A stretch of DNA of 64,000 nucleotides from an uncultured Flavobacteriaceae bacterium. Lineage in GTDB: Bacteria; Bacteroidota; Bacteroidia; NS11-12g; UBA955. Positions 53,400 through 63,599 of this stretch are shown in pieces. Positions within the stretch are counted from its first letter, which is position 1, and each line of letters opens with the position of its first letter. The stretch covers positions 196,852 through 260,851 of the forward strand of contig CAZPHB010000001.1 in the NCBI GenBank assembly GCA_964586595.1. Reading direction: 5' to 3'. The position numbers and the translations under genes are program-made. The notes under the pieces were generated by a model that searched no databases, was not told the DNA's origin, and was given only the letters and a program-made list of their open reading frames with translations.

Positions 53400-53999
53400 G
53401 TGGAGGCCATCAGAAAAATATTAAGTACGGCAGAACGCATGTTTATGCGCTTTGGTATTCGCAGTGTTACGATGGACGACGTGGCGCGCGAGACCAGCAT
53501 CAGCAAAAAAACCTTGTACCGCTGTTTCCGCGACAAGAATGATTTGGTCCAAAAAACCATTGAACAACATCTGAAAGCCATCGAGGAAAAAATGGATGAG
53601 CTTGACCGTTTGGAAGGTGATGCTGTTTCAGCCACCATGGCTATTGCCAACTTCATTTGCAGCGACCATCGGGAATTGAACCCGGCGCTGATTTTTGACC
53701 TGAAGAAATATCATTCGGACAGCTACGCCATGTTCACCAGGCAACGTGATCAAATCATCAGCACCAGGGTTTTAGACAATTTACAGAAAGGGATAGAGGC
53801 CGGATTGTATCGCAAAGACATCCATCCGGAATTGATTTCCCGCTTCTACATCAACAGCGTGGGAAGCTTGTTTGATCCGGACAGCTTTCCCGGTATGGAA
53901 TTCGATTTTGTAAGCAGGTATCGCGAATTGATTCGCTACCACTTGCACGGCATCGTTACCCCTGAAGGAAAAAAATTACTCGACAACATTCAAATATGA
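53400..53999 (+). CDS. TetR/AcrR family transcriptional regulator.
   Basis: N-terminal HTH …RFGIRSVTMDDVARETSISKKTLYRCFRDKNDLV…. Confidence 0.88.
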   Translation: MEAIRKILSTAERMFMRFGIRSVTMDDVARETSISKKTLYRCFRDKNDLVQKTIEQHLKAIEEKMDELDRLEGDAVSATMAIANFICSDHRELNPALIFDLKKYHSDSYAMFTRQRDQIISTRVLDNLQKGIEAGLYRKDIHPELISRFYINSVGSLFDPDSFPGMEFDFVSRYRELIRYHLHGIVTPEGKKLLDNIQI

Positions 54000-55366
54000 A
54001 AGGCAAAATCCTTGTTTTCCTGGCAACAGTGCTAAGCCTGCAGGCTGCCAGGGCGCAATCAAACACCGATACCCTAAAGCTGACCATGCTCCAGGCCATT
54101 GACTTGGCGCTGAAAACCAGCAGGCAGGTGCAGAATGCTTCCGCCGATATTCGTTTGGCCCAACAAAAAGTACGGGAAATTCAAAGCATTGGGCTTCCTC
54201 AGGTAAATGCAACCGGTGGATTTACCCAGTACGTGCAGATTCCGGGCAGCTATGTACCCAACTTTACCGGTCAGGGCCCTGACTTTCTGTTCATCAAATT
54301 TCAGCAGAAATACACTTCAAACCTGAATATTCAGGCCAGCCAGTTGCTTTACGACGGCACGTATTTATTGGGTTTGCAGGCTGCCAAATCATTCGTGGAA
54401 ATCAGCCGCCTGCTTGAATCAAAAAGCGAATACGATTTGAGCTTTGCCGTTGCAAAATCTTATGCCCTCTGCCTGAACACTTCCAGAAACCTGGAACTGC
54501 TGGACCAAAACATGGCCACCCTGAAGAAAACGCTGGAGGAAGTGCGCGAAATATACAATGCCGGTTTCGCCGAAAAACTGGACGTTGACAGGCTAAGTCT
54601 GAGCCTCGCTTCGCTGGGTGTGCAACGTGACAAACTGCTTGCAGGCGTGGAAATGACCCAAAATGTGTTGAAACTAACCATCGGGTTGCATCCGGCCCAG
54701 CCACTCATGCTGACAGATAACCTTGAAGACCTGAGCAAAGAACTTCATGTGGTGCTGCCCATTGAACAAGGTATGAGCATTCCAAAACCAAACAACAGGA
54801 TCGAATACCAACTGTTGCAGCAAAACCTGAAAATGAATGCCTTCGATGAAAAACGCTATAAAGTTGGATACACCCCAAACCTGGTTGGCTTTATGGCCTA
54901 TCAGCGCACCACCAACCGCTCTGAGTTCAATTTCCTTGACGGCAACCTTCCCATCAACAACACCTGGGTTCCGGCAACGCTTTGGGGACTGAACCTGAAC
55001 GTGCCCATTTTCGACGGCTTCCGCAAACAAAGTCAGATCCGGCAGGTGCGCATCAACAGGGAAAAAACCCTGAACGACCTGATCAGCTTTGAACATGCAG
55101 CGGGGATGGAATACCTCAATGCGCGACAGGCGTACCTGAGCAGCCTGAAAGCTCTGGAACTGCAAGCCCAAAACAGCGCGCTGGCAGAAACCATTTACAA
55201 CAACGTAAACACCAAATTCAAAGAAGGTGTGGGCAGCACCATTGAAATCCTGTCTGCCGAGAATGAATTAAAAAGCGCCCGGGTGAATTACCTCGGCGCC
55301 TTATATGACCTCAGCATTGCCATCATGGACCTCAAAAAAGCCCTTGGCGAAAACATCACTCCATAA
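53996..55366 (+). CDS. TolC family outer-membrane efflux protein.
   Basis: Signal peptide and two tandem OEP repeats. The start overlaps the TetR stop (ATGA). Confidence 0.85.
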   Translation: MKGKILVFLATVLSLQAARAQSNTDTLKLTMLQAIDLALKTSRQVQNASADIRLAQQKVREIQSIGLPQVNATGGFTQYVQIPGSYVPNFTGQGPDFLFIKFQQKYTSNLNIQASQLLYDGTYLLGLQAAKSFVEISRLLESKSEYDLSFAVAKSYALCLNTSRNLELLDQNMATLKKTLEEVREIYNAGFAEKLDVDRLSLSLASLGVQRDKLLAGVEMTQNVLKLTIGLHPAQPLMLTDNLEDLSKELHVVLPIEQGMSIPKPNNRIEYQLLQQNLKMNAFDEKRYKVGYTPNLVGFMAYQRTTNRSEFNFLDGNLPINNTWVPATLWGLNLNVPIFDGFRKQSQIRQVRINREKTLNDLISFEHAAGMEYLNARQAYLSSLKALELQAQNSALAETIYNNVNTKFKEGVGSTIEILSAENELKSARVNYLGALYDLSIAIMDLKKALGENITP

Positions 55367-55378
55367 GACCATCATCAA

Positions 55379-56521
55379 ATGAAAAACCGCAATACGATCA
55401 TCCTCTCTATCCTGACCCTTGCAGTAAGTGCATGTGGTGGCAAAAAAGCCGGAAACCTGGAAGAGAAAAAAGGGGAATTGGCCTCGATCAGAAAAGAAAT
55501 TTCAAGCCTTCAGGAGCGTGCCCGCGCACTGGAAACAGAAATTGCAACGCTTGACACCACAGCCACCGATGGAAAACTGAAACTTGTTGAAGTACTCGAT
55601 ATAAAACCGGAGCTATTCCAAGGTTATGTGGAAGTTCAGGGAACAGTAGATGCTGAGCAAAGTACCATTGCCACCGCCCAAATGCCGGGTGTAATCACCC
55701 GTGTTGCCGCATCCGTTGGGCAACAGGTAAGCGCTGGTCAGGTTTTGGCAGAAATAGACAACTCTTTGATGAAGCAACAGGTGGCGCAGGCACAACAACA
55801 ACTCGACTTCCTCACAACCTTGTACCTCAAGCAAAAAAGCCTGTGGGAAAAAGGAATTGGAACAGAAGTGCAATACCTGTCAGCGAAGAACCAAAAGGAA
55901 GCCATGGAGAAAAACCTGGCTGCGGCAAAAGAACAGCTGAACATGACCTACATCAAATCACAAATCAGCGGAACCATTGAATCTGTGGATGTAAAAATTG
56001 GTCAAACGGCCGCTCCCGGTATGCCGCTGTTTCGTGTAGTGAACATGAGCGGCGTGAAAGTAGTGAGTTCCATCGCTGAAACATATGTTTCCAAAATCAA
56101 CAAAGGCGATGCTGTGAAGATTCACTTCCCGGACCTGAAAAAAGATAAAGTAGGATTTGTCTCTTTTGTGAGCCGTGTAATTGATCCCATGAACCGCTCC
56201 TTCCGTTGTGAGGCCAAACTGACTGATGTTACCGACCTCAGGCCAAACATGCTGGCCGTGGTAAAAGTTACCGATTACGAACAAAAAAATGCCATCGCTG
56301 TGCCCGTAAACGTGATTCAGAACACCGGCAGTGGCGCTGAACTTTTTGTGATAGAAAACCAAAAAGGCAATCAATGGACCGCAAAGCACCGCAGCGTGAA
56401 AATTGGACGCAATTCCGGTGAGAAGGTAGAGATACTGGAAGGTTTGAAGGCCGGTGACCGAATCATTACCAACGGCTTCCAGGGCTTGTCTGATGGCCAG
56501 TTAGTGCAGATTATCGAATGA
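55379..56521 (+). CDS. Efflux RND transporter periplasmic adaptor subunit (HlyD/MFP family lipoprotein).
   Basis: Lipobox …LAVSACGG, coiled-coil hairpin, lipoyl-like and beta-barrel domains. Confidence 0.9.
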   Translation: MKNRNTIILSILTLAVSACGGKKAGNLEEKKGELASIRKEISSLQERARALETEIATLDTTATDGKLKLVEVLDIKPELFQGYVEVQGTVDAEQSTIATAQMPGVITRVAASVGQQVSAGQVLAEIDNSLMKQQVAQAQQQLDFLTTLYLKQKSLWEKGIGTEVQYLSAKNQKEAMEKNLAAAKEQLNMTYIKSQISGTIESVDVKIGQTAAPGMPLFRVVNMSGVKVVSSIAETYVSKINKGDAVKIHFPDLKKDKVGFVSFVSRVIDPMNRSFRCEAKLTDVTDLRPNMLAVVKVTDYEQKNAIAVPVNVIQNTGSGAELFVIENQKGNQWTAKHRSVKIGRNSGEKVEILEGLKAGDRIITNGFQGLSDGQLVQIIE

Positions 56522-56534
56522 GGTCCACACAACC

Positions 56535-59500
56535 ATGAATCAGAAATTCAAAGAATTCAAACCCACCAGCTGGTCAATCGACAACAAGACCAGCATTTTC
56601 GTGGTGACCCTGATTGTTACCCTTACCGGCATCATCAGCTACATTGGCCTTCCCAAGGAGAAATTTCCGGATATCGTTATTCCCACCATCTATGTACAAA
56701 CCATTTATCCGGGTTCCGCGCCAAAAGACATAGAAAACCTGATTACCAAACCCATTGAAAAGAAAATCAAAGGCATCAATGGATTGAAAAAACTTACCAG
56801 TCAGAGTGTGCAGGATTTCAGCATCATCGTGGCTGAATTTCAAACAGATGTTTCGGTAGACCAGGCCAAGCAAAAAGTTAAAGATGAAGTTGACAAGGCA
56901 AGAAGCGAACTTCCGTCGGATCTGAAGCAGGAACCTACGGTACAGGAAATCAACTTCGCCGATTTACCCATCCTGAACATCAACATTGCCGGAGATTTTG
57001 AGTTGAATAAGCTCAAAGAATACGCCGAACAGGCCAAAGACCGTATTGAAAGCCTGAAAGAGATCACGCGTGTGGACATCATCGGTGCCCTGGAACGCGA
57101 AATTCAGGTGAATCTAGACCTCTACAAAATGGAGGCCGCGGGCATTGGCATGGACGACGCCATTCGCGCCATACAGTATGAAAACGTGCGCATCGCAGGT
57201 GGAAACATCGATGTGGCCAACATGAAACGAAGTTTGAGTGTGGTTGGAGAATTTAAAAATCCCGCCGACGTTCAGAACATCATCATCAGGGCACAATCGG
57301 GTGCTACCGTGTATCTTAGAGACATCGCAGAGGTAGCCGATGGTTTTAAAGAGAAAGAAAGTTATGCGCGTTTGGGCGGAAAGAACGTAATCACCCTGAA
57401 CGTCATCAAAAGAGCCGGGGAAAACCTGATTGATGCCAGCGATAAATGCCGCAACATCATGACAGAACTTGGGGAAACCTCCTATCCCAAGAACCTGAGT
57501 GTGGTGCTTACCGGCGACCAAAGCACGCAAACGCGAGTTACCCTGCATGACCTCATCAACACCATCATCATTGGCTTCATTCTGGTAACCATCATCCTGA
57601 TGTTCTTCATGGGTGCCACAAATGCCATTTTCGTTGGACTCTCCGTTCCACTGAGTATGTTCCTGGCCTTCATGGTGATGCCGGCATTGGGCTTCAGCCT
57701 CAACATGATTGTTTTGTTCAGCTTCCTGCTGGCACTTGGCATTGTGGTGGACGACGCCATTGTGGTGATTGAAAACACCCACCGCATTTTCGCAAACGGT
57801 AAAATGCCCATTGTGGATGCCGCAAAGAAAGCAGCCGGAGAAGTGTTCCTGCCTGTATTCAGTGGAACCATGACCACCCTTGCGCCTTTCGTGCCCCTCG
57901 CCTTCTGGCAGGGCATCATTGGAAAGTTTATGTACTTTTTACCGGTTACCCTGATCATTACGCTCTTGGCATCACTGTTGGTAGCGTACATCATCAACCC
58001 GGTTTTTGCAGTTCAGTTCATGAAGCCACATCATGCCGATGGAAATAAGGCCGGCAGAAAACGCATGTTCCGAAATGTGAGCATCATTGCCATTGGTGTG
58101 GCCGTAATTGCCTACGCCAGTGGGGCAGCAAATGGCTTTTGGGGCTCTACCGGTTTTGGTGTTGGCAACTTCGTGCTCCTGATGTACGGCATTTTTTCGC
58201 TCCATCACTTCTGGCTGGAACGTGTCATCCGTAATTTCCAGGAGCGCTCCTGGCCCAATTTTCAGCACAAATTCAAGATGCTGCTGATTTGGTGCCTCAA
58301 GGGCAGCCGCCCCATTTGGCTGCTGGTATTTACCATTGGTTTGTTCTTCTTCTCTATCGTACTCACCGCCATCAGAAAGCCCAATGTGCTCTTCTTCCCT
58401 GTTTCGGAACCCAACTTCGTGTACGTGTATCTGAATGTTCCGGTTGGAAGCACGCCTGCCTATACCGACAGCATTACCAAAATTGTTGAAAAACGGGTCT
58501 ATAACACCTTAGGTACCAAAAATCCCATCGTAGAAAGTGTTATCAGCAACGTAGCCGTGGGGGCCAATGACCCTCAAGGTGGTGACCGAACCGTGGCCTC
58601 ACACCGGGCAAAGGTGACCATTGCCTTTGTTGAGTTCAGCAAACGCAATGGCGCAAGCACTTCCGAATACCTGGAAAAGATCCGTAAATCACTGAAAGGC
58701 ATCGCCGGAACAGAGATTTCAGTAGAACAGGAACGCGCAGGACCGCCTACGGGAAAACCCATCAACATAGAAATAAGAGGTGATGCATTTGAAGAACTGG
58801 TGCGCACCGCAGGAGGCCTCAAGCGCTTCATCGAGGATAAAAAAATTGCCGGTGTCGAGGAGTTGAAATCAGACTTCGTTTCCAGCAAACCCGAAATTGT
58901 GGTGAATATTGACCGAGAGCGCGCCAACCGGCAAGGAATCAGCACCGGGCAGATTGGCATGGCACTGCGCAACAGCATCTATGGTGCTGAAGCAAGCAAA
59001 TTCCGCGACAACAATGACGATTATCCCATTCAGGTTCGCATCAAAGCAGATCAGCGAAACGACGTGAATGCGCTGATGAACATGAAAATTGGCTACCGCG
59101 ACATGAACATGGGCGGCGTATTTCGTCAGGTTCCTTTGTCGGCAGTAGCTGATATATCCTACACCAATACCTTTGGAGGCATCAACCGTATCAACCAAAA
59201 AAGGGTGATTGTTTTGGGGTCCAACCTGTTGAGTGGTTACAGCCCCAATGAAGTCATTCCACAGATTCAGCAGGCGGTAAAAGAGTTCAGCGTTCCTTCC
59301 GGCATTGAGGTAGCCTTAACCGGTGAACAGGAACAACAAGCCGAAACACAGTCGTTCCTGGGCAAAGCCATGGGTATTTCGCTGGCCATCATCCTGTTGA
59401 TTCTGGTGACCCAGTTCAACAGCATCAGCAAACCAATCCTTATTCTTTCTGAAATTATCTTCTCCATTATCGGCGTATTGTTGGGTTTGAGCATCTTCAA

Positions 59501-59978
59501 CATGAGCATTTCCATCGTGATGACCGGTGTTGGCATTGTTGCACTTGCCGGAATAGTGGTGCGAAACGGCATCTTGTTGGTAGAATTTACTGAATTGCTG
59601 CGCAGCCATGGGGTTCCGCTAAAGGATGCCATCATTGAGGCCGGCCGCACCCGTATGACTCCGGTGCTGCTCACAGCTTCTGCAACCATCCTTGGACTGA
59701 TTCCACTGGCGGTGGGTTTGAACATAGATTTTGCCAAACTGTTTACCGAATTAAATCCGCATATTTTTATGGGCGGAGACAGTGTTGCCTTTTGGGGCCC
59801 ATTAAGCTGGACGATGATTTTCGGCCTCAGCTTTGCCACCTTCCTCACCCTGATCCTTGTTCCGGCGATGTATTTACTGAATGAACGCATGAAACAAAAG
59901 GTATTTGGATGGTTCGGGAAAACCTATGACCCGGATGCCGGCACCCAGCCGGATGCACTCAGCAAACTGGATATTTAA
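56535..59978 (+). CDS. Efflux RND transporter permease subunit (AcrB/CzcA family, HAE1-like).
   Basis: 1147 aa with a 12-TM layout, large periplasmic loops, and …ALGIVVDDAIVVIENT…. Confidence 0.93.
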   Translation: MNQKFKEFKPTSWSIDNKTSIFVVTLIVTLTGIISYIGLPKEKFPDIVIPTIYVQTIYPGSAPKDIENLITKPIEKKIKGINGLKKLTSQSVQDFSIIVAEFQTDVSVDQAKQKVKDEVDKARSELPSDLKQEPTVQEINFADLPILNINIAGDFELNKLKEYAEQAKDRIESLKEITRVDIIGALEREIQVNLDLYKMEAAGIGMDDAIRAIQYENVRIAGGNIDVANMKRSLSVVGEFKNPADVQNIIIRAQSGATVYLRDIAEVADGFKEKESYARLGGKNVITLNVIKRAGENLIDASDKCRNIMTELGETSYPKNLSVVLTGDQSTQTRVTLHDLINTIIIGFILVTIILMFFMGATNAIFVGLSVPLSMFLAFMVMPALGFSLNMIVLFSFLLALGIVVDDAIVVIENTHRIFANGKMPIVDAAKKAAGEVFLPVFSGTMTTLAPFVPLAFWQGIIGKFMYFLPVTLIITLLASLLVAYIINPVFAVQFMKPHHADGNKAGRKRMFRNVSIIAIGVAVIAYASGAANGFWGSTGFGVGNFVLLMYGIFSLHHFWLERVIRNFQERSWPNFQHKFKMLLIWCLKGSRPIWLLVFTIGLFFFSIVLTAIRKPNVLFFPVSEPNFVYVYLNVPVGSTPAYTDSITKIVEKRVYNTLGTKNPIVESVISNVAVGANDPQGGDRTVASHRAKVTIAFVEFSKRNGASTSEYLEKIRKSLKGIAGTEISVEQERAGPPTGKPINIEIRGDAFEELVRTAGGLKRFIEDKKIAGVEELKSDFVSSKPEIVVNIDRERANRQGISTGQIGMALRNSIYGAEASKFRDNNDDYPIQVRIKADQRNDVNALMNMKIGYRDMNMGGVFRQVPLSAVADISYTNTFGGINRINQKRVIVLGSNLLSGYSPNEVIPQIQQAVKEFSVPSGIEVALTGEQEQQAETQSFLGKAMGISLAIILLILVTQFNSISKPILILSEIIFSIIGVLLGLSIFNMSISIVMTGVGIVALAGIVVRNGILLVEFTELLRSHGVPLKDAIIEAGRTRMTPVLLTASATILGLIPLAVGLNIDFAKLFTELNPHIFMGGDSVAFWGPLSWTMIFGLSFATFLTLILVPAMYLLNERMKQKVFGWFGKTYDPDAGTQPDALSKLDI

Positions 59979-59995
59979 ACCAAAACACAATAATC

Positions 59996-60024
59996 AAAAG
60001 AGGAGCACACGCTCCTCTTTTGAT
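59996..60024 (+). terminator. Rho-independent terminator after the RND permease.
   Basis: AAAAGAGGAGC-acac-GCTCCTCTTTT perfect 11-bp stem, then TGATTATT. Confidence 0.75.
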
Positions 60025-60053
60025 TATTGCCGTTGCCTGCGTTATTTTGAATC

Positions 60054-60470
60054 ATGTTTTCAGACAACTGGCTGCTAGGAATCATTGCATTATTTCTGGG
60101 CATCAATATTTTCACAGCCATCAAAATGCGCGGCGCCACTGAACTGCTCAGCACCGAACAAAAGGCCCAATTGTTTAAGCTCTTTGGCAGTATGCGTATT
60201 TATTCCCTGTTACTTCTGAGTGCCGTAATTGCAGCTTTCCTTTATTTCTCACAAAAAGGCGCACAAAATCAAGAAGCCATCACCCTCATTTATTTCATTG
60301 CCTTGATCAGCATCACCCTGGGTATTGTATGGATGAGTGTGCGTAAACTGAAACAACATGCTTATCCTGCGGCATACATTAAGACCTATTTTATGGCACA
60401 TGCCCTACGCAATTTAGGTTTGCTCGCCATGCTCGCGTATCTGCTTTTAATAGGAAGATCCAGCTTTTAG
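60054..60470 (+). CDS. Hypothetical small membrane protein (about 4 TM helices).
   Basis: 138-aa ORF with hydrophobic segments. Follows the terminator, 71 bp upstream of the lipoprotein gene. No recognisable family. Confidence 0.4.
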   Translation: MFSDNWLLGIIALFLGINIFTAIKMRGATELLSTEQKAQLFKLFGSMRIYSLLLLSAVIAAFLYFSQKGAQNQEAITLIYFIALISITLGIVWMSVRKLKQHAYPAAYIKTYFMAHALRNLGLLAMLAYLLLIGRSSF

Positions 60471-60541
60471 ACCCTTGAATTCTCGCTGCGTTTGCTGAAG
60501 AAGCAATAAATGTTTCTTTTATTTGCGCTTTACGCATCAAG

Positions 60542-62155
60542 TTGAGGAACGGAAGGATCTTAGGGATTTTATCTGCCGTAGTCTTTTTTTCGGCATGCAT
60601 GAAGGATTCAGTGGATCAATTAACTTCACTGAAGGGCGCTTCATGGAACGGAACCTATGCCGTCCCATTAATCAATGCAGTGTTGGCGCCGGAAGATGCG
60701 CTGAAATTTACCGACGAATTCAGCAATATTGCCGCCTACCCTGATGGGCAGATGTTTGTTGCCTATGAACGAAAATCATTTTCCATCAGAGGACAAGATT
60801 ACTACAAACCATCATCGATAAACAATACGTTCAGCTACCGTTTGAACAGTGCCGAACAACAATTGCTGGAAGGCGGCTCTGTGGTGATGGAACGCGATCA
60901 AATCATCGACTGGTATCAGGGTGGAGCCACTATAGACTCCATTCAGTTCAAATCCGGCAAGTTGCGCGTGGAAGTAGAAAATTACATCCAGCACCAATTA
61001 TCCATTACCATACTCATTCTTGGAACCAAACCGGAAGGATTGCTCAGCAAAACGGTGGAAGTACCATGGAAAGGACCCGGAACCAAGGGTGGATTGGAAA
61101 TCAACCTGGCCGGACTGCTTGCCGACTTAACACGCGGACCGAAGGGCAACAATCAGTTTAGGGTGCGCATTCGGGCGGTGTTCAACAATACGCATGGCGG
61201 TGCCATCAATGGAACCGACCCGTTGAACCTGAACATCATTGCCAATGATTTCACCTGGATGCGTGCGCATGGTTTGTTTGCCGAAAAGAACATCCTTTCC
61301 AAAACTGAAGACTTGAGGCTTGGCTTGCTCTCCTCCGATTTTCTTGCACGCGGCACCAAATTCAAAGACGCACGATTAAAACTGAAGTGGCAGAACTCCT
61401 ATGCCCTTCCCTTGCAACTGAATGTAAACAGCCTGGGGTTCATTTTTGGGGATGGAAGCAGAAAACTGATTACCGGATTTGCCCCAAGTTACGAGGTCCC
61501 TGCTGCAAACAATCAAATCCTTTCCGCACAAACGGATTCTGTATATCTGAATGAAGGTAATTCCAATGTTTCAAACCTGGTTGATGCGCAACCTCATTAC
61601 CTGTTTTGGAATGAAGCCATCCTGGTAAAATCCGGTGCCGGCAGCAGCCGTCATACCATTTGGGCCGAAAGCGTGTGTACCTTTAGTGTTTCCCTGGAAT
61701 TGCCTTTGTACGTTGCATCCGAAGAAATGATACTCAGCGGTTCCACCGATATTAAAGCGGAATGGAAGGAAGAAGTTGCCAAGGCCAATTGGATCAACCT
61801 GCGTTTTCAAATCAAAAACCAGATTCCGCTGTCGCTGCAGCTTCAGGCCTACCTGCTCGATGCACAAAACAACATTCTTGATTCCCTGATCAAACCCAGC
61901 CAGGAACTCTTCCCTTCTGCATATACTGATTCATTGGGAAATGTGGTAAAGGACAAGGAGCAAATCTTGGATGTGCGGTTGGATCAGACAGGGTTGCAAC
62001 GATTCCTGCAAGCTAAGAGCATCCACCTGAAGGCAATAACAAATACAGGAAATTATTTAGGAAGGCCTCTAGGATTGAGCAAAATCATCAAAGGGCAACA
62101 ACTGTTCATCAAACTTGGTATTCAATCCAGTTTAAACCTGCACTGGAAGTTTTAA
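60542..62155 (+). CDS. Hypothetical lipoprotein (537 aa), family not recognised. TTG start.
   Basis: MRNGRILGILSAVVFFSAC carries a lipobox Cys. Predicted beta-rich. A 6-bp gap to the next gene suggests translational coupling. Confidence 0.55.
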   Translation: MRNGRILGILSAVVFFSACMKDSVDQLTSLKGASWNGTYAVPLINAVLAPEDALKFTDEFSNIAAYPDGQMFVAYERKSFSIRGQDYYKPSSINNTFSYRLNSAEQQLLEGGSVVMERDQIIDWYQGGATIDSIQFKSGKLRVEVENYIQHQLSITILILGTKPEGLLSKTVEVPWKGPGTKGGLEINLAGLLADLTRGPKGNNQFRVRIRAVFNNTHGGAINGTDPLNLNIIANDFTWMRAHGLFAEKNILSKTEDLRLGLLSSDFLARGTKFKDARLKLKWQNSYALPLQLNVNSLGFIFGDGSRKLITGFAPSYEVPAANNQILSAQTDSVYLNEGNSNVSNLVDAQPHYLFWNEAILVKSGAGSSRHTIWAESVCTFSVSLELPLYVASEEMILSGSTDIKAEWKEEVAKANWINLRFQIKNQIPLSLQLQAYLLDAQNNILDSLIKPSQELFPSAYTDSLGNVVKDKEQILDVRLDQTGLQRFLQAKSIHLKAITNTGNYLGRPLGLSKIIKGQQLFIKLGIQSSLNLHWKF

Positions 62156-62161
62156 ATCAAC

Positions 62162-63586
62162 ATGAATTGCAGGCTGCTGGTTTCTCTGAGTACGATATTT
62201 TGTATCCTAACCCAAATCAAGGCCCAGGAAGCATTCGGTTTGTATCATGCTGCTCAGGTACCTCAACAAAACTTGTTAAACCCGGCAACACGCAATAAGG
62301 CAGGTACTGTTTTGGGAATACCTGCATTAAGCGCAACGGAATTTATTTATTTCAACAGCAGCTTTACCCTGCGCGATTTGTTGGGCAGCGTGGATCGACA
62401 ACCTGATTCCGCCACCCTGAACCTGAATAAGGTGGTTGATTTGCTTCAGAACAAAAACCTGATCACCGCCAAATTAAACCAACAATGGCTTTATGCATCG
62501 TTCAGAAAAGGCCCGAATCAATGCACATTCCACGCAGGCGAACGGGCCCTTTTCAGGTTAAAATACCCTAAAGACTTATTCGACCTGATCATTAATGGAA
62601 ATGGTGCTGACAAGCTCGGATCTACCTTTAACCTGAAAAGTTCATTTAGTGCATTGCACTACCGTGAGTACGGTATTGGATATACGCGTTACATCAATGA
62701 CCAATTGTCCTTGGGTGCTAGGATAAAGTTTCTTAAAGGATACTCCATCGTTGATGCATCCCAATTGCAATTGAATCTTAATACGGGTTCTGACATATAC
62801 ACCTGGACGGCTACATCAAACATCAATATCCGTGCTGCGAGCACCGCATTCTCAGCCACCGAAACCAATGCACAAATCGAAGTTGCAAATCTGTTCAGAA
62901 ATTCAACAAACCCGGGAATGGCCCTTGACATCGGCATCGTTTGGCAGGAACACCCCAGAATAACACTTTCGGCATCATTACTCGACTTCGGTTTTATCAA
63001 TTGGAAAACCAATGCCGTGCGCTTGAGAAGCACAAAACCCAACGCCTCATTCAGCTTTGAAGGGCTTCCAATTACCTCTACAGAAGATGACCTCAACGCA
63101 TACCTGTTAAAAATCAGGGACAGCATCAACCTGAGCCTGGGCCTGGACACCATCAATGCGAGTTTCAACAAAGCCCTGGCGGCGCAGTTCCTCGGAGGAG
63201 TTCAGTACCAGATTCATGAACGTTTTGCCATAAATGGACTGTTTTATTGTGATATCATGAATCAGGCGGTGAATCCCGCTGTGCACACGGGCATCAGGTG
63301 GCAACCGGTATATTGGCTCTACCTGATGGCACACAATACTTCATTCAACAAAACTCTACTGAACCCCGGATTTGGGGCCACTGTTCAGGTCGGAAAGTTG
63401 CAATGGTACGCCTCGACAGAGCAGGTACTTGGACTGATGATGCCAGACCAATACAAAAACTTCACATTTCGCTGTGGGGTGAATGTCTTAATTCAGAAGG
63501 ATGAGCGCAGTTTGAAACGCATCAAAGACCCTGAACAACTGAATCTGATGAATGGTATTCAGGAAATGGAACAATGGGGCCGTTGA
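62162..63586 (+). CDS. Hypothetical secreted outer-membrane-type protein (474 aa), possibly a beta-barrel; family not recognised (it may be a DUF5723-like Bacteroidota family).
   Basis: Signal peptide MNCRLLVSLSTIFCILTQIKAQEA; rich in aromatics, Gly and Asn with alternating strands. Confidence 0.55.
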   Translation: MNCRLLVSLSTIFCILTQIKAQEAFGLYHAAQVPQQNLLNPATRNKAGTVLGIPALSATEFIYFNSSFTLRDLLGSVDRQPDSATLNLNKVVDLLQNKNLITAKLNQQWLYASFRKGPNQCTFHAGERALFRLKYPKDLFDLIINGNGADKLGSTFNLKSSFSALHYREYGIGYTRYINDQLSLGARIKFLKGYSIVDASQLQLNLNTGSDIYTWTATSNINIRAASTAFSATETNAQIEVANLFRNSTNPGMALDIGIVWQEHPRITLSASLLDFGFINWKTNAVRLRSTKPNASFSFEGLPITSTEDDLNAYLLKIRDSINLSLGLDTINASFNKALAAQFLGGVQYQIHERFAINGLFYCDIMNQAVNPAVHTGIRWQPVYWLYLMAHNTSFNKTLLNPGFGATVQVGKLQWYASTEQVLGLMMPDQYKNFTFRCGVNVLIQKDERSLKRIKDPEQLNLMNGIQEMEQWGR

Positions 63587-63599
63587 TGGATGCCCTGCA

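What the first reader, a model, noticed from the sequence alone, without database searches (positions are those of the whole stretch)
60054..63586. Uncharacterised three-gene envelope module: small membrane protein, 537-aa lipoprotein and 474-aa secreted outer-membrane-type protein
After a strong terminator at about 60.0 kb, three same-strand ORFs with no family I can recognise form a compact unit. The lipoprotein and the secreted protein are separated by only 6 bp, which suggests translational coupling. One is a lipid-anchored large protein with a MRNGRILGILSAVVFFSAC lipobox and a TTG start. The other is a signal-peptide-bearing protein rich in aromatics and Gly, probably a beta-barrel. That pairing resembles known outer-membrane two-partner modules such as SusC/D, Slam and PorP-type pairs, but it matches none of their sequence signatures. 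The region also looks slightly AT-richer than the flanking core genes.
Basis: partly seen in the sequence, partly recalled or inferred. Interest (0 to 1): 0.55.

Follow-up and report, generated by a model that had tools for sequence, protein, structure and literature searches.

The report
Conserved lipoprotein plus FadL-like barrel pair
This is a two-gene outer-membrane unit, a lipid-anchored protein followed by a FadL-shaped barrel protein, that recurs across the phylum Bacteroidota; both belong to 'unknown function' families, so its architecture is now clear but its job has never been tested.

The parts
59987..60030 (+). Terminator hairpin closing the upstream TetR-OEP-MFP-RND efflux operon. 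It marks the boundary and is not part of the module.
   Evidence: 20-pair stem followed by a T-run on either strand. The RND gene stops at 59978.
60054..60470 (+). Small inner-membrane-type protein (138 aa, four hydrophobic segments). It is a real gene but a clade-specific neighbour, not a conserved part of the module.
   Evidence: 57-88% identical in seven syntenic loci. Absent beside the pair in every other context. No significant Pfam or NCBIfam hit. Four TM-like windows.
60513..60527 (+). Conserved non-coding box TTTCTTTTATTTGCG, 16 nt upstream of the TTG start. It probably contains a Bacteroidota -7-type promoter element (one mismatch to TAnnTTTG) for the two-gene operon.
   Evidence: The core CTTTTATTTGC is invariant, or differs at one base, across six orthologous loci whose flanking non-coding DNA has diverged (alignment A6). 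No exact TANNTTTG lies in this spacer; the nearest is at 60415-60422, inside ORF1. Promoter function is inferred.
60542..62155 (+). Lipoprotein of 537 aa: signal peptide, lipobox Cys19, a conserved tail (C-x-K-D-x-x-D ... W-N-x-x-x-A-x-P-L), three or four beta-sandwich domains and a conserved C-terminal domain (about residues 385-535). It is an enlarged remote relative of DUF4621.
62162..63586 (+). DUF5723 outer-membrane beta-barrel of FadL fold (474 aa). It has a signal peptide cleaved after IKA21, an N-terminal hatch with the NPA motif at 40-42, and a C-terminal periplasmic helix.

Best explanation
The unit is a self-contained two-gene outer-membrane operon found across Bacteroidota. The second gene encodes a FadL-fold beta-barrel (DUF5723). 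The first encodes its cognate lipoprotein, a member of a DUF4621-like superfamily.

I propose the two are made in fixed proportion from one tightly coupled transcript and form a stable 1:1 barrel-lipoprotein complex. The lipoprotein's lipidated N-terminal tail (C-x-K-D-x-x-D ... W-N-P-x-x-A-x-P-L) and its conserved C-terminal beta-sandwich would dock on the barrel. The variable central beta-sandwich domains would project from the membrane, most probably on the cell surface, as a binding or shielding module.

Because the barrel keeps the FadL hatch hallmarks (a short N-terminal plug with an aromatic residue near the mature N-terminus and an NPA motif), the most likely activity is passage of a hydrophobic or amphipathic molecule through the barrel. 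The lipoprotein would then act as an extracellular cap or ligand-capturing partner, as SusD does for SusC and BtuG for BtuB.

Shown: gene order, coupling, conservation, folds, motifs and remote homology to DUF4621.
Inferred: physical complex, surface exposure, docking regions and substrate class.
For: Pairing:
- The lipoprotein ORF is immediately followed by a DUF5723 ORF on the same strand in all loci with room: the window and L001-L014, L016-L020; L021-L023; L026; L105-L107.
- The contexts differ: RND/fabH, mutS, uvrD, kdsA/mgsA, pheT/yebC, nuo and others.
- Nothing else is conserved around the pair.

Coupling:
- Stop-to-start distances are -14 (six loci), -4 (five), 0, +4, +6 (seven, including the window) and +9. 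Only four are longer, at +36 to +81.

Docking regions:
- Minimal 206- and 233-aa partners keep only profile positions about 9-50 and about 400-535.
- DUF4621 shares the lipobox, a W-x-A-P-L motif and the ELPL...N-x-x-P...D-E-N-N motifs.

Barrel:
- FadL fold. N40 is invariant and P41 nearly invariant.
- The NPA hatch motif is essential for FadL's substrate-induced opening (PMC8407342).

Surface exposure:
- The window protein has two acidic residues within six residues of the Cys, as do 72% of 150 family members.
- PMC12578637 uses this same criterion for surface lipoproteins.

Precedent:
- FadL-fold BamG holds the conserved lipidated N-terminus of the surface lipoprotein BamH, and BamG2/BamH2 are encoded in one operon (PMC12611786; PMC12578637).

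Binding rather than catalysis:
- The invariant residues across 35 diverse lipoproteins are only Pro, Gly and Asn.
Against:
- The window's post-Cys sequence is K-D-S, not the K-(D/E)2 minimal export signal, and K-D alone was a weak signal in C. canimorsus (PMC5080379). The lipoprotein could therefore face the periplasm.
- In some lineages the barrel is fused to TSP3 repeats and an OmpA peptidoglycan-binding domain. This fits a static anchoring role at least as well as transport.
- FadL-fold proteins in this phylum (PorV, BamG) have repeatedly been recruited to non-transport roles.
- The barrel does not hit the Pfam FadL model (Toluene_X) at E <= 1, and the lateral opening (S3 kink) was not examined.
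- One locus (L024) has tandem DUF5723 genes with no lipoprotein.
Confidence: 0.6

Rival explanations
1. The barrel is a structural anchoring platform rather than a transporter. It serves only as a membrane socket that holds the lipoprotein, and in some lineages ties it to peptidoglycan through an OmpA domain. The lipoprotein would be a surface coat, adhesin or shield component.
For: DUF5723-TSP3-OmpA fusions occur next to family lipoproteins (L001, L023, and P0033/34/40/41). BamG and PorV show that FadL-fold barrels in this phylum act as attachment platforms. The central lipoprotein domains are variable and dispensable. The beta-sandwich/CBM-like folds are typical of surface binding modules.
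Against: The hatch NPA motif and the N-terminal sequence are among the most conserved parts of the barrel. That is not expected if the lumen had no role, although a plug may be kept simply to seal the barrel.
Confidence: 0.25
2. The lipoprotein faces the periplasm and plugs or regulates the barrel from inside, as in LptD/LptE-type arrangements. The pair would then export a hydrophobic envelope component.
For: The window lacks a strict K-(D/E)2 export signal. The pair sits among envelope and lipid housekeeping genes (fabH/plsX, kdsA, lpxD).
Confidence: 0.1
3. The pair is an accessory or alternative BamG/BamH-type unit of the Bacteroidota BAM complex, or a Slam-like dedicated device that delivers this lipoprotein to the surface.
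Confidence: 0.07
4. The pair is linked to type IX secretion. The barrel would act like PorV or PorQ, tethering secreted cargo, and the lipoprotein would be an adaptor.
Against: No CTD gene lies beside the pair in the window or in most loci. The lipoprotein has no Por_Secre_tail domain. No NCBIfam PorV, PorQ or PorP model hits. CTD proteins are numerous in these genomes, so proximity may be chance, and L105 and L019 may represent a single lineage.
Confidence: 0.06

Closest known systems
Pfam DUF5723 (PF18990), uncharacterised outer-membrane barrel family of Bacteroidota and some spirochaetes
   Same: The 474-aa protein is a full-length member: E 7.6e-63, 213.9 bits against a cut-off of 26.8, covering profile positions 1-375 of 376.
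   Different: Nothing differs at family level. The family has no assigned function. In the searchable literature it appears only in an OMV proteome table and in a Brachyspira modelling preprint.
Pfam DUF4621 (PF15414) / PDB 4H3W, BDI_1231 of Parabacteroides distasonis
   Different: The window protein does not hit the DUF4621 model, even at E <= 1 for the full protein and E <= 10 for the C-terminal domain. It is about 185 residues longer, with extra central beta-sandwich domains. hhalign detects only about 70 aligned columns (probability 78%). DUF4621 itself has no known function.
FadL / TodX long-chain fatty acid and hydrocarbon channels (Pfam Toluene_X)
   Different: No sequence-level hit to Toluene_X. 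The hatch is shorter: by my recollection, NPA lies 19 residues from the mature N-terminus here against 33 in E. coli FadL. Classical FadL has no dedicated lipoprotein partner.
BamG-BamH (and BamG2-BamH2) of the Bacteroidota BAM complex
   Same: A FadL-fold barrel holds a lipoprotein whose conserved lipidated N-terminus is gripped by the barrel, and BamG2/BamH2 are encoded in one operon. This is the closest analogue for how the pair probably works.
   Different: The families differ (Toluene_X against DUF5723). No profile match was found to BamG or BamH chains in the PDB. The barrel lacks BamG's N-terminal extension. Association with BamA is unknown.
SusC/SusD-type and BtuB/BtuG-type barrel-surface-lipoprotein transporters
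   Same: The general logic is the same: an outer-membrane barrel with an adjacent, co-expressed lipoprotein cap.
   Different: Those barrels are 22-stranded TonB-dependent transporters with plug domains, and SusD is helical (TPR-like). No SusC, SusD or TonB-receptor models hit. The gene order is also reversed, with the lipoprotein first here.

Membership tests
DUF5723 (PF18990) | Score above Pfam's gathering threshold over the full model | tested here: met
   213.9 bits against 26.8; profile positions 1-375 of 376. All 33 homologues carry PF18990.
FadL family (Toluene_X, PF03349) | Sequence match to the family model | tested here: not met
   No Toluene_X hit at E <= 1. No FadL, TodX, PorV or BamG chain found by the A2 profile in the PDB at E <= 1.
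FadL family (Toluene_X, PF03349) | 14-stranded barrel fold with an N-terminal hatch | tested here: met
FadL family (Toluene_X, PF03349) | Conserved NPA motif in the hatch | tested here: met
   N40-P41-A42 in the window. N40 is invariant and P41 at least 90% conserved in 28 homologues. The motif also appears in most orthologues listed. Its role is described in PMC8407342.
FadL family (Toluene_X, PF03349) | Lateral opening (S3 kink) in the barrel wall and transport of hydrophobic substrates | not tested
DUF4621 (PF15414) | Score above Pfam's gathering threshold | tested here: not met
   No hit for the full protein at E <= 1, nor for the C-terminal domain or the mini versions at E <= 10.
DUF4621 (PF15414) | Remote homology: shared fold, motifs and genomic partner | tested here: met
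BamG (Bacteroidota BAM subunit) | Toluene_X membership plus a conserved 10-12-residue N-terminal extension that passes through the lateral opening | tested here: not met
   No Toluene_X hit. The mature N-terminus QEAFGLY... reaches NPA after 19 residues, so there is no extension. The defining features are from PMC12578637.
BamG (Bacteroidota BAM subunit) | Physical association with BamA | not testable with these tools
   Requires co-purification.
PorV / PorQ / PorP-SprF (T9SS barrels) | Match to the curated NCBIfam or Pfam models | tested here: not met
   No NCBIfam hit of any kind for the barrel. Pfam gives only DUF5723.
SusC/SusD pair | TonB-dependent receptor plug and barrel domains, with a SusD/RagB lipoprotein | tested here: not met
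Slam (DUF560) plus surface-lipoprotein substrate | DUF560 barrel with an N-terminal TPR domain | tested here: not met
   No DUF560 or TPR hit. The barrel's N-terminus is a short hatch.
Bacteroidota surface-exposed lipoprotein | [quoted passage not shown] | tested here: inconclusive
   The window sequence is C-M-K-D-S-V-D. It has two acidic residues in six, which meets the criterion of PMC12578637, but K-D-S is not K-(D/E)2 (PMC5080379). [quoted passage not shown]

The most novel reading that the evidence does not exclude
The DUF4621-like lipoprotein and the DUF5723 barrel form a previously unrecognised, phylum-wide core component of the Bacteroidota outer membrane. It would be a third class of FadL-fold barrel-lipoprotein machine, beside BamG-BamH and the PorV/PorQ complexes, with its own essential or near-essential envelope function. 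Possible functions include trafficking a lipid or other hydrophobic envelope constituent, or assembling a surface layer.
Probability: 0.25. Interest if true: 0.75.

Novelty: new variant of a known kind. Interest (0 to 1): 0.5.

Why it matters
Outer-membrane barrel-lipoprotein complexes are the defining feature of the Bacteroidota cell surface. Examples are the Sus systems, the vitamin B12 systems, the extended BAM complex and the T9SS attachment complexes.

This work links two 'domain of unknown function' families, DUF4621 and DUF5723, into one conserved operon. It also adds a large lipoprotein family with no Pfam or NCBIfam model, represented by at least 1,467 sequence clusters. The operon was seen in MAGs labelled Flavobacteriales, Saprospiraceae and Porphyromonadaceae, in Parabacteroides distasonis, and in many other uncultured Bacteroidota.

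The result gives an orphan crystal structure (4H3W) a genomic partner and a testable role. It identifies which parts of the lipoprotein are core and which are variable. It also points to tractable organisms for experiments, such as P. distasonis and probably other gut Bacteroidales that carry DUF4621.

A practical point: public gene calls for this lipoprotein start one codon after the lipid-anchor cysteine. As annotated, the protein therefore looks cytoplasmic.

Tried and rejected
- Word-indexed homology searches badly under-reported the lipoprotein family: 10-11 hits against 1,467 in the exhaustive HMMER search.
- Genome scans with diverse alignments (A3, A1) failed for lack of a conserved 7-10-residue stretch. 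The narrower A4 worked but reached only uncultured MAGs, so presence in F. johnsoniae and other cultured model species was not established.
- The AlphaFold-database fold search (afdb50) was unavailable. No named UniProt relatives could be retrieved.
- Source names for ten distant lipoprotein members were all absent or 'hypothetical protein'. None of ten distant members hit Pfam.
- Literature searches for DUF5723, DUF4621 and BDI_1231 found no functional study.
- Horizontal acquisition was rejected. GC3 is normal, synteny holds down to 53% identity, and the flanks are housekeeping genes.
- An exact Bacteroidota -7 promoter motif (TANNTTTG) is absent from both intergenic spacers. Only a conserved one-mismatch variant is present.
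- The sigma-70 and terminator scan found nothing above shuffled expectation inside the module.
Full report
**1. What is in the sequence**

- 60054-60470: 138 aa, ATG start.
- 60542-62155: 537 aa, TTG start.
- 62162-63586: 474 aa, ATG start.

Upstream is a TetR / outer-membrane factor / membrane-fusion / RND efflux operon (53400-59978). It ends in a 20-pair hairpin with a T-run at 59987-60030. Downstream, fabH converges on the minus strand, 13 bp after the barrel's stop.

The module has 45.6% GC against 49.7% for the window, which is the 0.3rd percentile of equal-sized windows. Third-position GC of the two large genes (0.52) is within one SD of the window's genes (0.554 +/- 0.039). The same gene order is kept in relatives with only about 53% protein identity. 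The composition shift is therefore real but does not indicate recent acquisition.

**2. Start codon and lipobox of the 537-aa protein**

- The public gene call identical to this protein (P0001, 518 aa) begins at the ATG one codon after Cys19. That removes the signal peptide.
- Homologues with a complete N-terminus carry a hydrophobic leader ending in ...S-A-C, Q-S-C or A-S-C. One orthologue has Leu in place of that internal Met.
- Of 160 family members examined, 150 have a signal peptide plus Cys. The other ten have no such N-terminus and look like truncated or fragmentary gene calls.
- At DNA level the TTG is invariant in six orthologous loci. A non-coding box (CTTTTATTTGC, around 60513-60527) 16 nt upstream is also conserved, although the surrounding spacer has diverged.
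- That box is one mismatch from the Bacteroidota -7 promoter consensus TAnnTTTG, as I recall it. No exact copy lies in the spacer.
- I infer that the lipoprotein and barrel genes have their own promoter and a short leader. This was not tested.

**3. The 474-aa protein**

- It is a full-length member of Pfam DUF5723 (E 7.6e-63), so the 'no recognisable family' claim is wrong for this gene.
- At sequence level it does not hit Toluene_X/FadL, PorV or any NCBIfam model. Its profile finds no PDB chain.
- The mature N-terminus (QEAFGLYHAAQVPQQNLLNPATR) is one of the best conserved parts of the family. It contains N40 (invariant), P41 (at least 90% conserved) and A42. An NPA motif in the N-terminal hatch is a FadL hallmark required for substrate-induced opening (PMC8407342).
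- The barrel is not notably rich in Gly or aromatics.

**4. The 537-aa lipoprotein**

- It hits nothing in Pfam or NCBIfam, and neither do ten distant relatives.
- The word-indexed search suggested a tiny family of 10 hits. The exhaustive HMMER search found 1,467 cluster representatives at E <= 1e-3 and 574 at E <= 1e-10, most of the 150 listed being 500-580 aa.
- The model (pLDDT 78.8) is all-beta: a disordered lipidated tail followed by several beta-sandwich domains.
- The family profile's only PDB sequence hit is again 4H3W. It is marginal (E 0.31) but falls on the family's most conserved motifs: ELPL ... N-x-x-P ... Q-x-Y-F-x-D-x-N-N-I-L-D.
- That fragment identifies 4H3W as Pfam DUF4621 (E 9e-43). 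hhalign of the family against BDI_1231 gives 78% probability and E 1.8e-5 over the C-terminal domain.
- BDI_1231 also has a lipobox (LAAC), acidic residues after the Cys, and a W-V-A-P-L motif matching the family's W-N-P-x-x-A-x-P-L.

**5. A prediction that held**

If the lipoprotein is a DUF4621 relative and the pairing matters, DUF4621 genes should also precede DUF5723 genes. I fetched P. distasonis contigs around BDI_1231. The gene 36 bp downstream is a DUF5723 protein (E 2.9e-116). hhalign against the window's barrel family gives probability 100% and E 1.3e-48. Its neighbours are pheT, yebC, a GT87 glycosyltransferase and an S41 peptidase. None of these is related to the window's context.

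**6. Conservation of the pair**

- With HMMs of both families, every locus holding a lipoprotein homologue and enough downstream sequence has a DUF5723-type barrel ORF immediately after it on the same strand. This covers the window and L001-L014, L016-L020, L021-L023, L026, and L105 and L107. In L106 the truncated downstream gene is assigned only by 28% identity to the L105 barrel.
- The record titles label these loci Flavobacteriales, Saprospiraceae, Porphyromonadaceae and unclassified Bacteroidia or Bacteroidota MAGs; L026 matches P. distasonis BDI_1231.
- All-against-all clustering of flanking ORFs shows that only the pair is shared between contexts. The flanks are housekeeping genes: mutS, uvrD, kdsA-type, mgsA, fabH/plsX, lpxD, nuo and pheT.
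- Stop-to-start distances are -14 nt (six loci), -4 (five), 0, +4, +6 (seven, including the window) and +9. Four are longer, at +36 to +81. This tight coupling fits co-translation and a fixed stoichiometry.
- One exception was seen: tandem DUF5723 genes with no lipoprotein (L024).

**7. Anatomy of the lipoprotein family**

- Two distant DUF5723 genes are preceded by proteins of only 206 and 233 aa. These match the family profile at positions about 9-50 (lipobox plus tail motif) and about 400-535 (C-terminal domain), and nothing in between.
- DUF4621 (about 330 aa) is intermediate in size, and members of up to 692-722 aa exist.
- The constant core is therefore the lipidated N-terminal tail plus the C-terminal sandwich. 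The central domains are a variable insert.
- Across 35 diverse members the invariant residues are only Pro, Gly and Asn. This argues for a structural or binding role rather than catalysis.

**8. The small membrane protein**

It is a real gene: 57-88% identical across seven loci, with four hydrophobic segments. It occurs only in the clade that also shares the RND pump, always between the pump's terminator and the lipoprotein gene. No other context has it. It is a lineage-specific neighbour of unknown function. With no terminator between it and the lipoprotein gene, co-transcription cannot be excluded. It is not part of the conserved module.

**9. How it most likely works**

The best precedent is the extended BAM complex of Bacteroidota:
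- FadL-fold BamG anchors the surface lipoprotein BamH. BamH's conserved lipidated N-terminus runs in a groove of, or is wedged into, the barrel.
- A paralogous BamG2/BamH2 pair is encoded in one operon (PMC12611786; PMC12578637).

By analogy, I propose that the DUF5723 barrel and its lipoprotein form a stable 1:1 complex through the lipoprotein's tail and C-terminal domain.

Surface exposure is likely but unproven:
[quoted passage not shown] This is the criterion used in PMC12578637.
- However, K-D-S is not the strict K-(D/E)2 signal, and K-D alone was weak in C. canimorsus (PMC5080379).

Because the hatch and NPA motif are conserved, I favour a FadL-type passage for a hydrophobic molecule with the lipoprotein as cap or ligand catcher. 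A purely structural anchoring role is a strong rival. It is supported by the variants in which the barrel is fused to TSP3 repeats and an OmpA peptidoglycan-binding domain.

**10. What it is not**

- Not SusC/D, Slam or PorP/SprF: none of those models hit.
- Not BamG. BamG belongs to Toluene_X and has an N-terminal extension, whereas this barrel hits only DUF5723 and has a short hatch. Profile searches do not find BAM chains in the PDB.
- A T9SS link is weak. PorV is a close fold match. In one divergent lineage a conserved CTD protein follows the pair (L105 and L019, 38% identity). But no CTD gene is next to the pair in the window or in most loci.

**11. Novelty and verdict**

The unit is ordinary in kind: a barrel-lipoprotein complex, the signature architecture of this phylum. 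Its particular families are uncharacterised. DUF5723 and DUF4621 have no functional literature in the searchable library. The window's lipoprotein subfamily has no Pfam or NCBIfam model. I found no published mention of the link between the two DUFs, although I could not search neighbourhood databases.

I rate it a new variant of a known kind, with moderate interest (0.5). Interest would be higher if the pair proves to be a core envelope machine.

Noticed in passing
window 60542-60601: The public gene call identical to this protein (518 aa) starts at the ATG one codon after the lipid-anchor Cys19. This deletes the signal peptide and lipobox. The TTG at 60542 is invariant in six orthologous loci. 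Several relatives in the databases appear to be truncated in the same way.
   Followed up: yes
window 60513-60527: A conserved non-coding box (core CTTTTATTTGC) lies 16 nt upstream of the TTG start. It is kept across orthologues whose surrounding spacer has diverged. It is one mismatch from the Bacteroidota -7 promoter consensus.
   Followed up: partly
whole window: The motif TANNTTTG (Bacteroidota -7 consensus) is under-represented: 21 matches against 37 +/- 5.8 in dinucleotide-preserving shuffles. All 100 shuffles had at least 21.
   Followed up: no
window 53400-59978: A complete TetR / outer-membrane factor / membrane-fusion / RND efflux operon lies directly upstream and ends in a strong hairpin terminator. 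It is syntenic with the module in the closest relatives only.
   Followed up: partly
L105 3893-5389; L019 10265-11791: Homologous T9SS C-terminal-sorting-domain proteins of about 500 aa (38% identical) lie downstream of the lipoprotein-barrel pair in two divergent loci: 1 nt after the barrel in L105, and after a kdsA-type gene in L019. In P. gingivalis an OMV proteome table lists DUF5723 protein Q7MT24 next to T9SS-CTD protein Q7MT25.
   Followed up: partly
L021 4374-4994; L022 4258-4959: Minimal 206- and 233-aa lipoproteins lie upstream of DUF5723 genes. They retain only the N-terminal tail and the C-terminal domain of the 537-aa family.
   Followed up: yes
L001 9611-11836; L023 1714-3966: In some lineages the DUF5723 barrel is fused at its C-terminus to thrombospondin type-3 repeats and an OmpA peptidoglycan-binding domain. 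It is still preceded by a family lipoprotein.
   Followed up: partly
L024 3380-6521: Two DUF5723 genes sit in tandem with no lipoprotein gene upstream. This was the only exception to the pairing that I saw.
   Followed up: no
window 63587-63599: The barrel gene and the convergent fabH gene are separated by only 13 bp, and the scan found no terminator-like hairpin between them.
   Followed up: no
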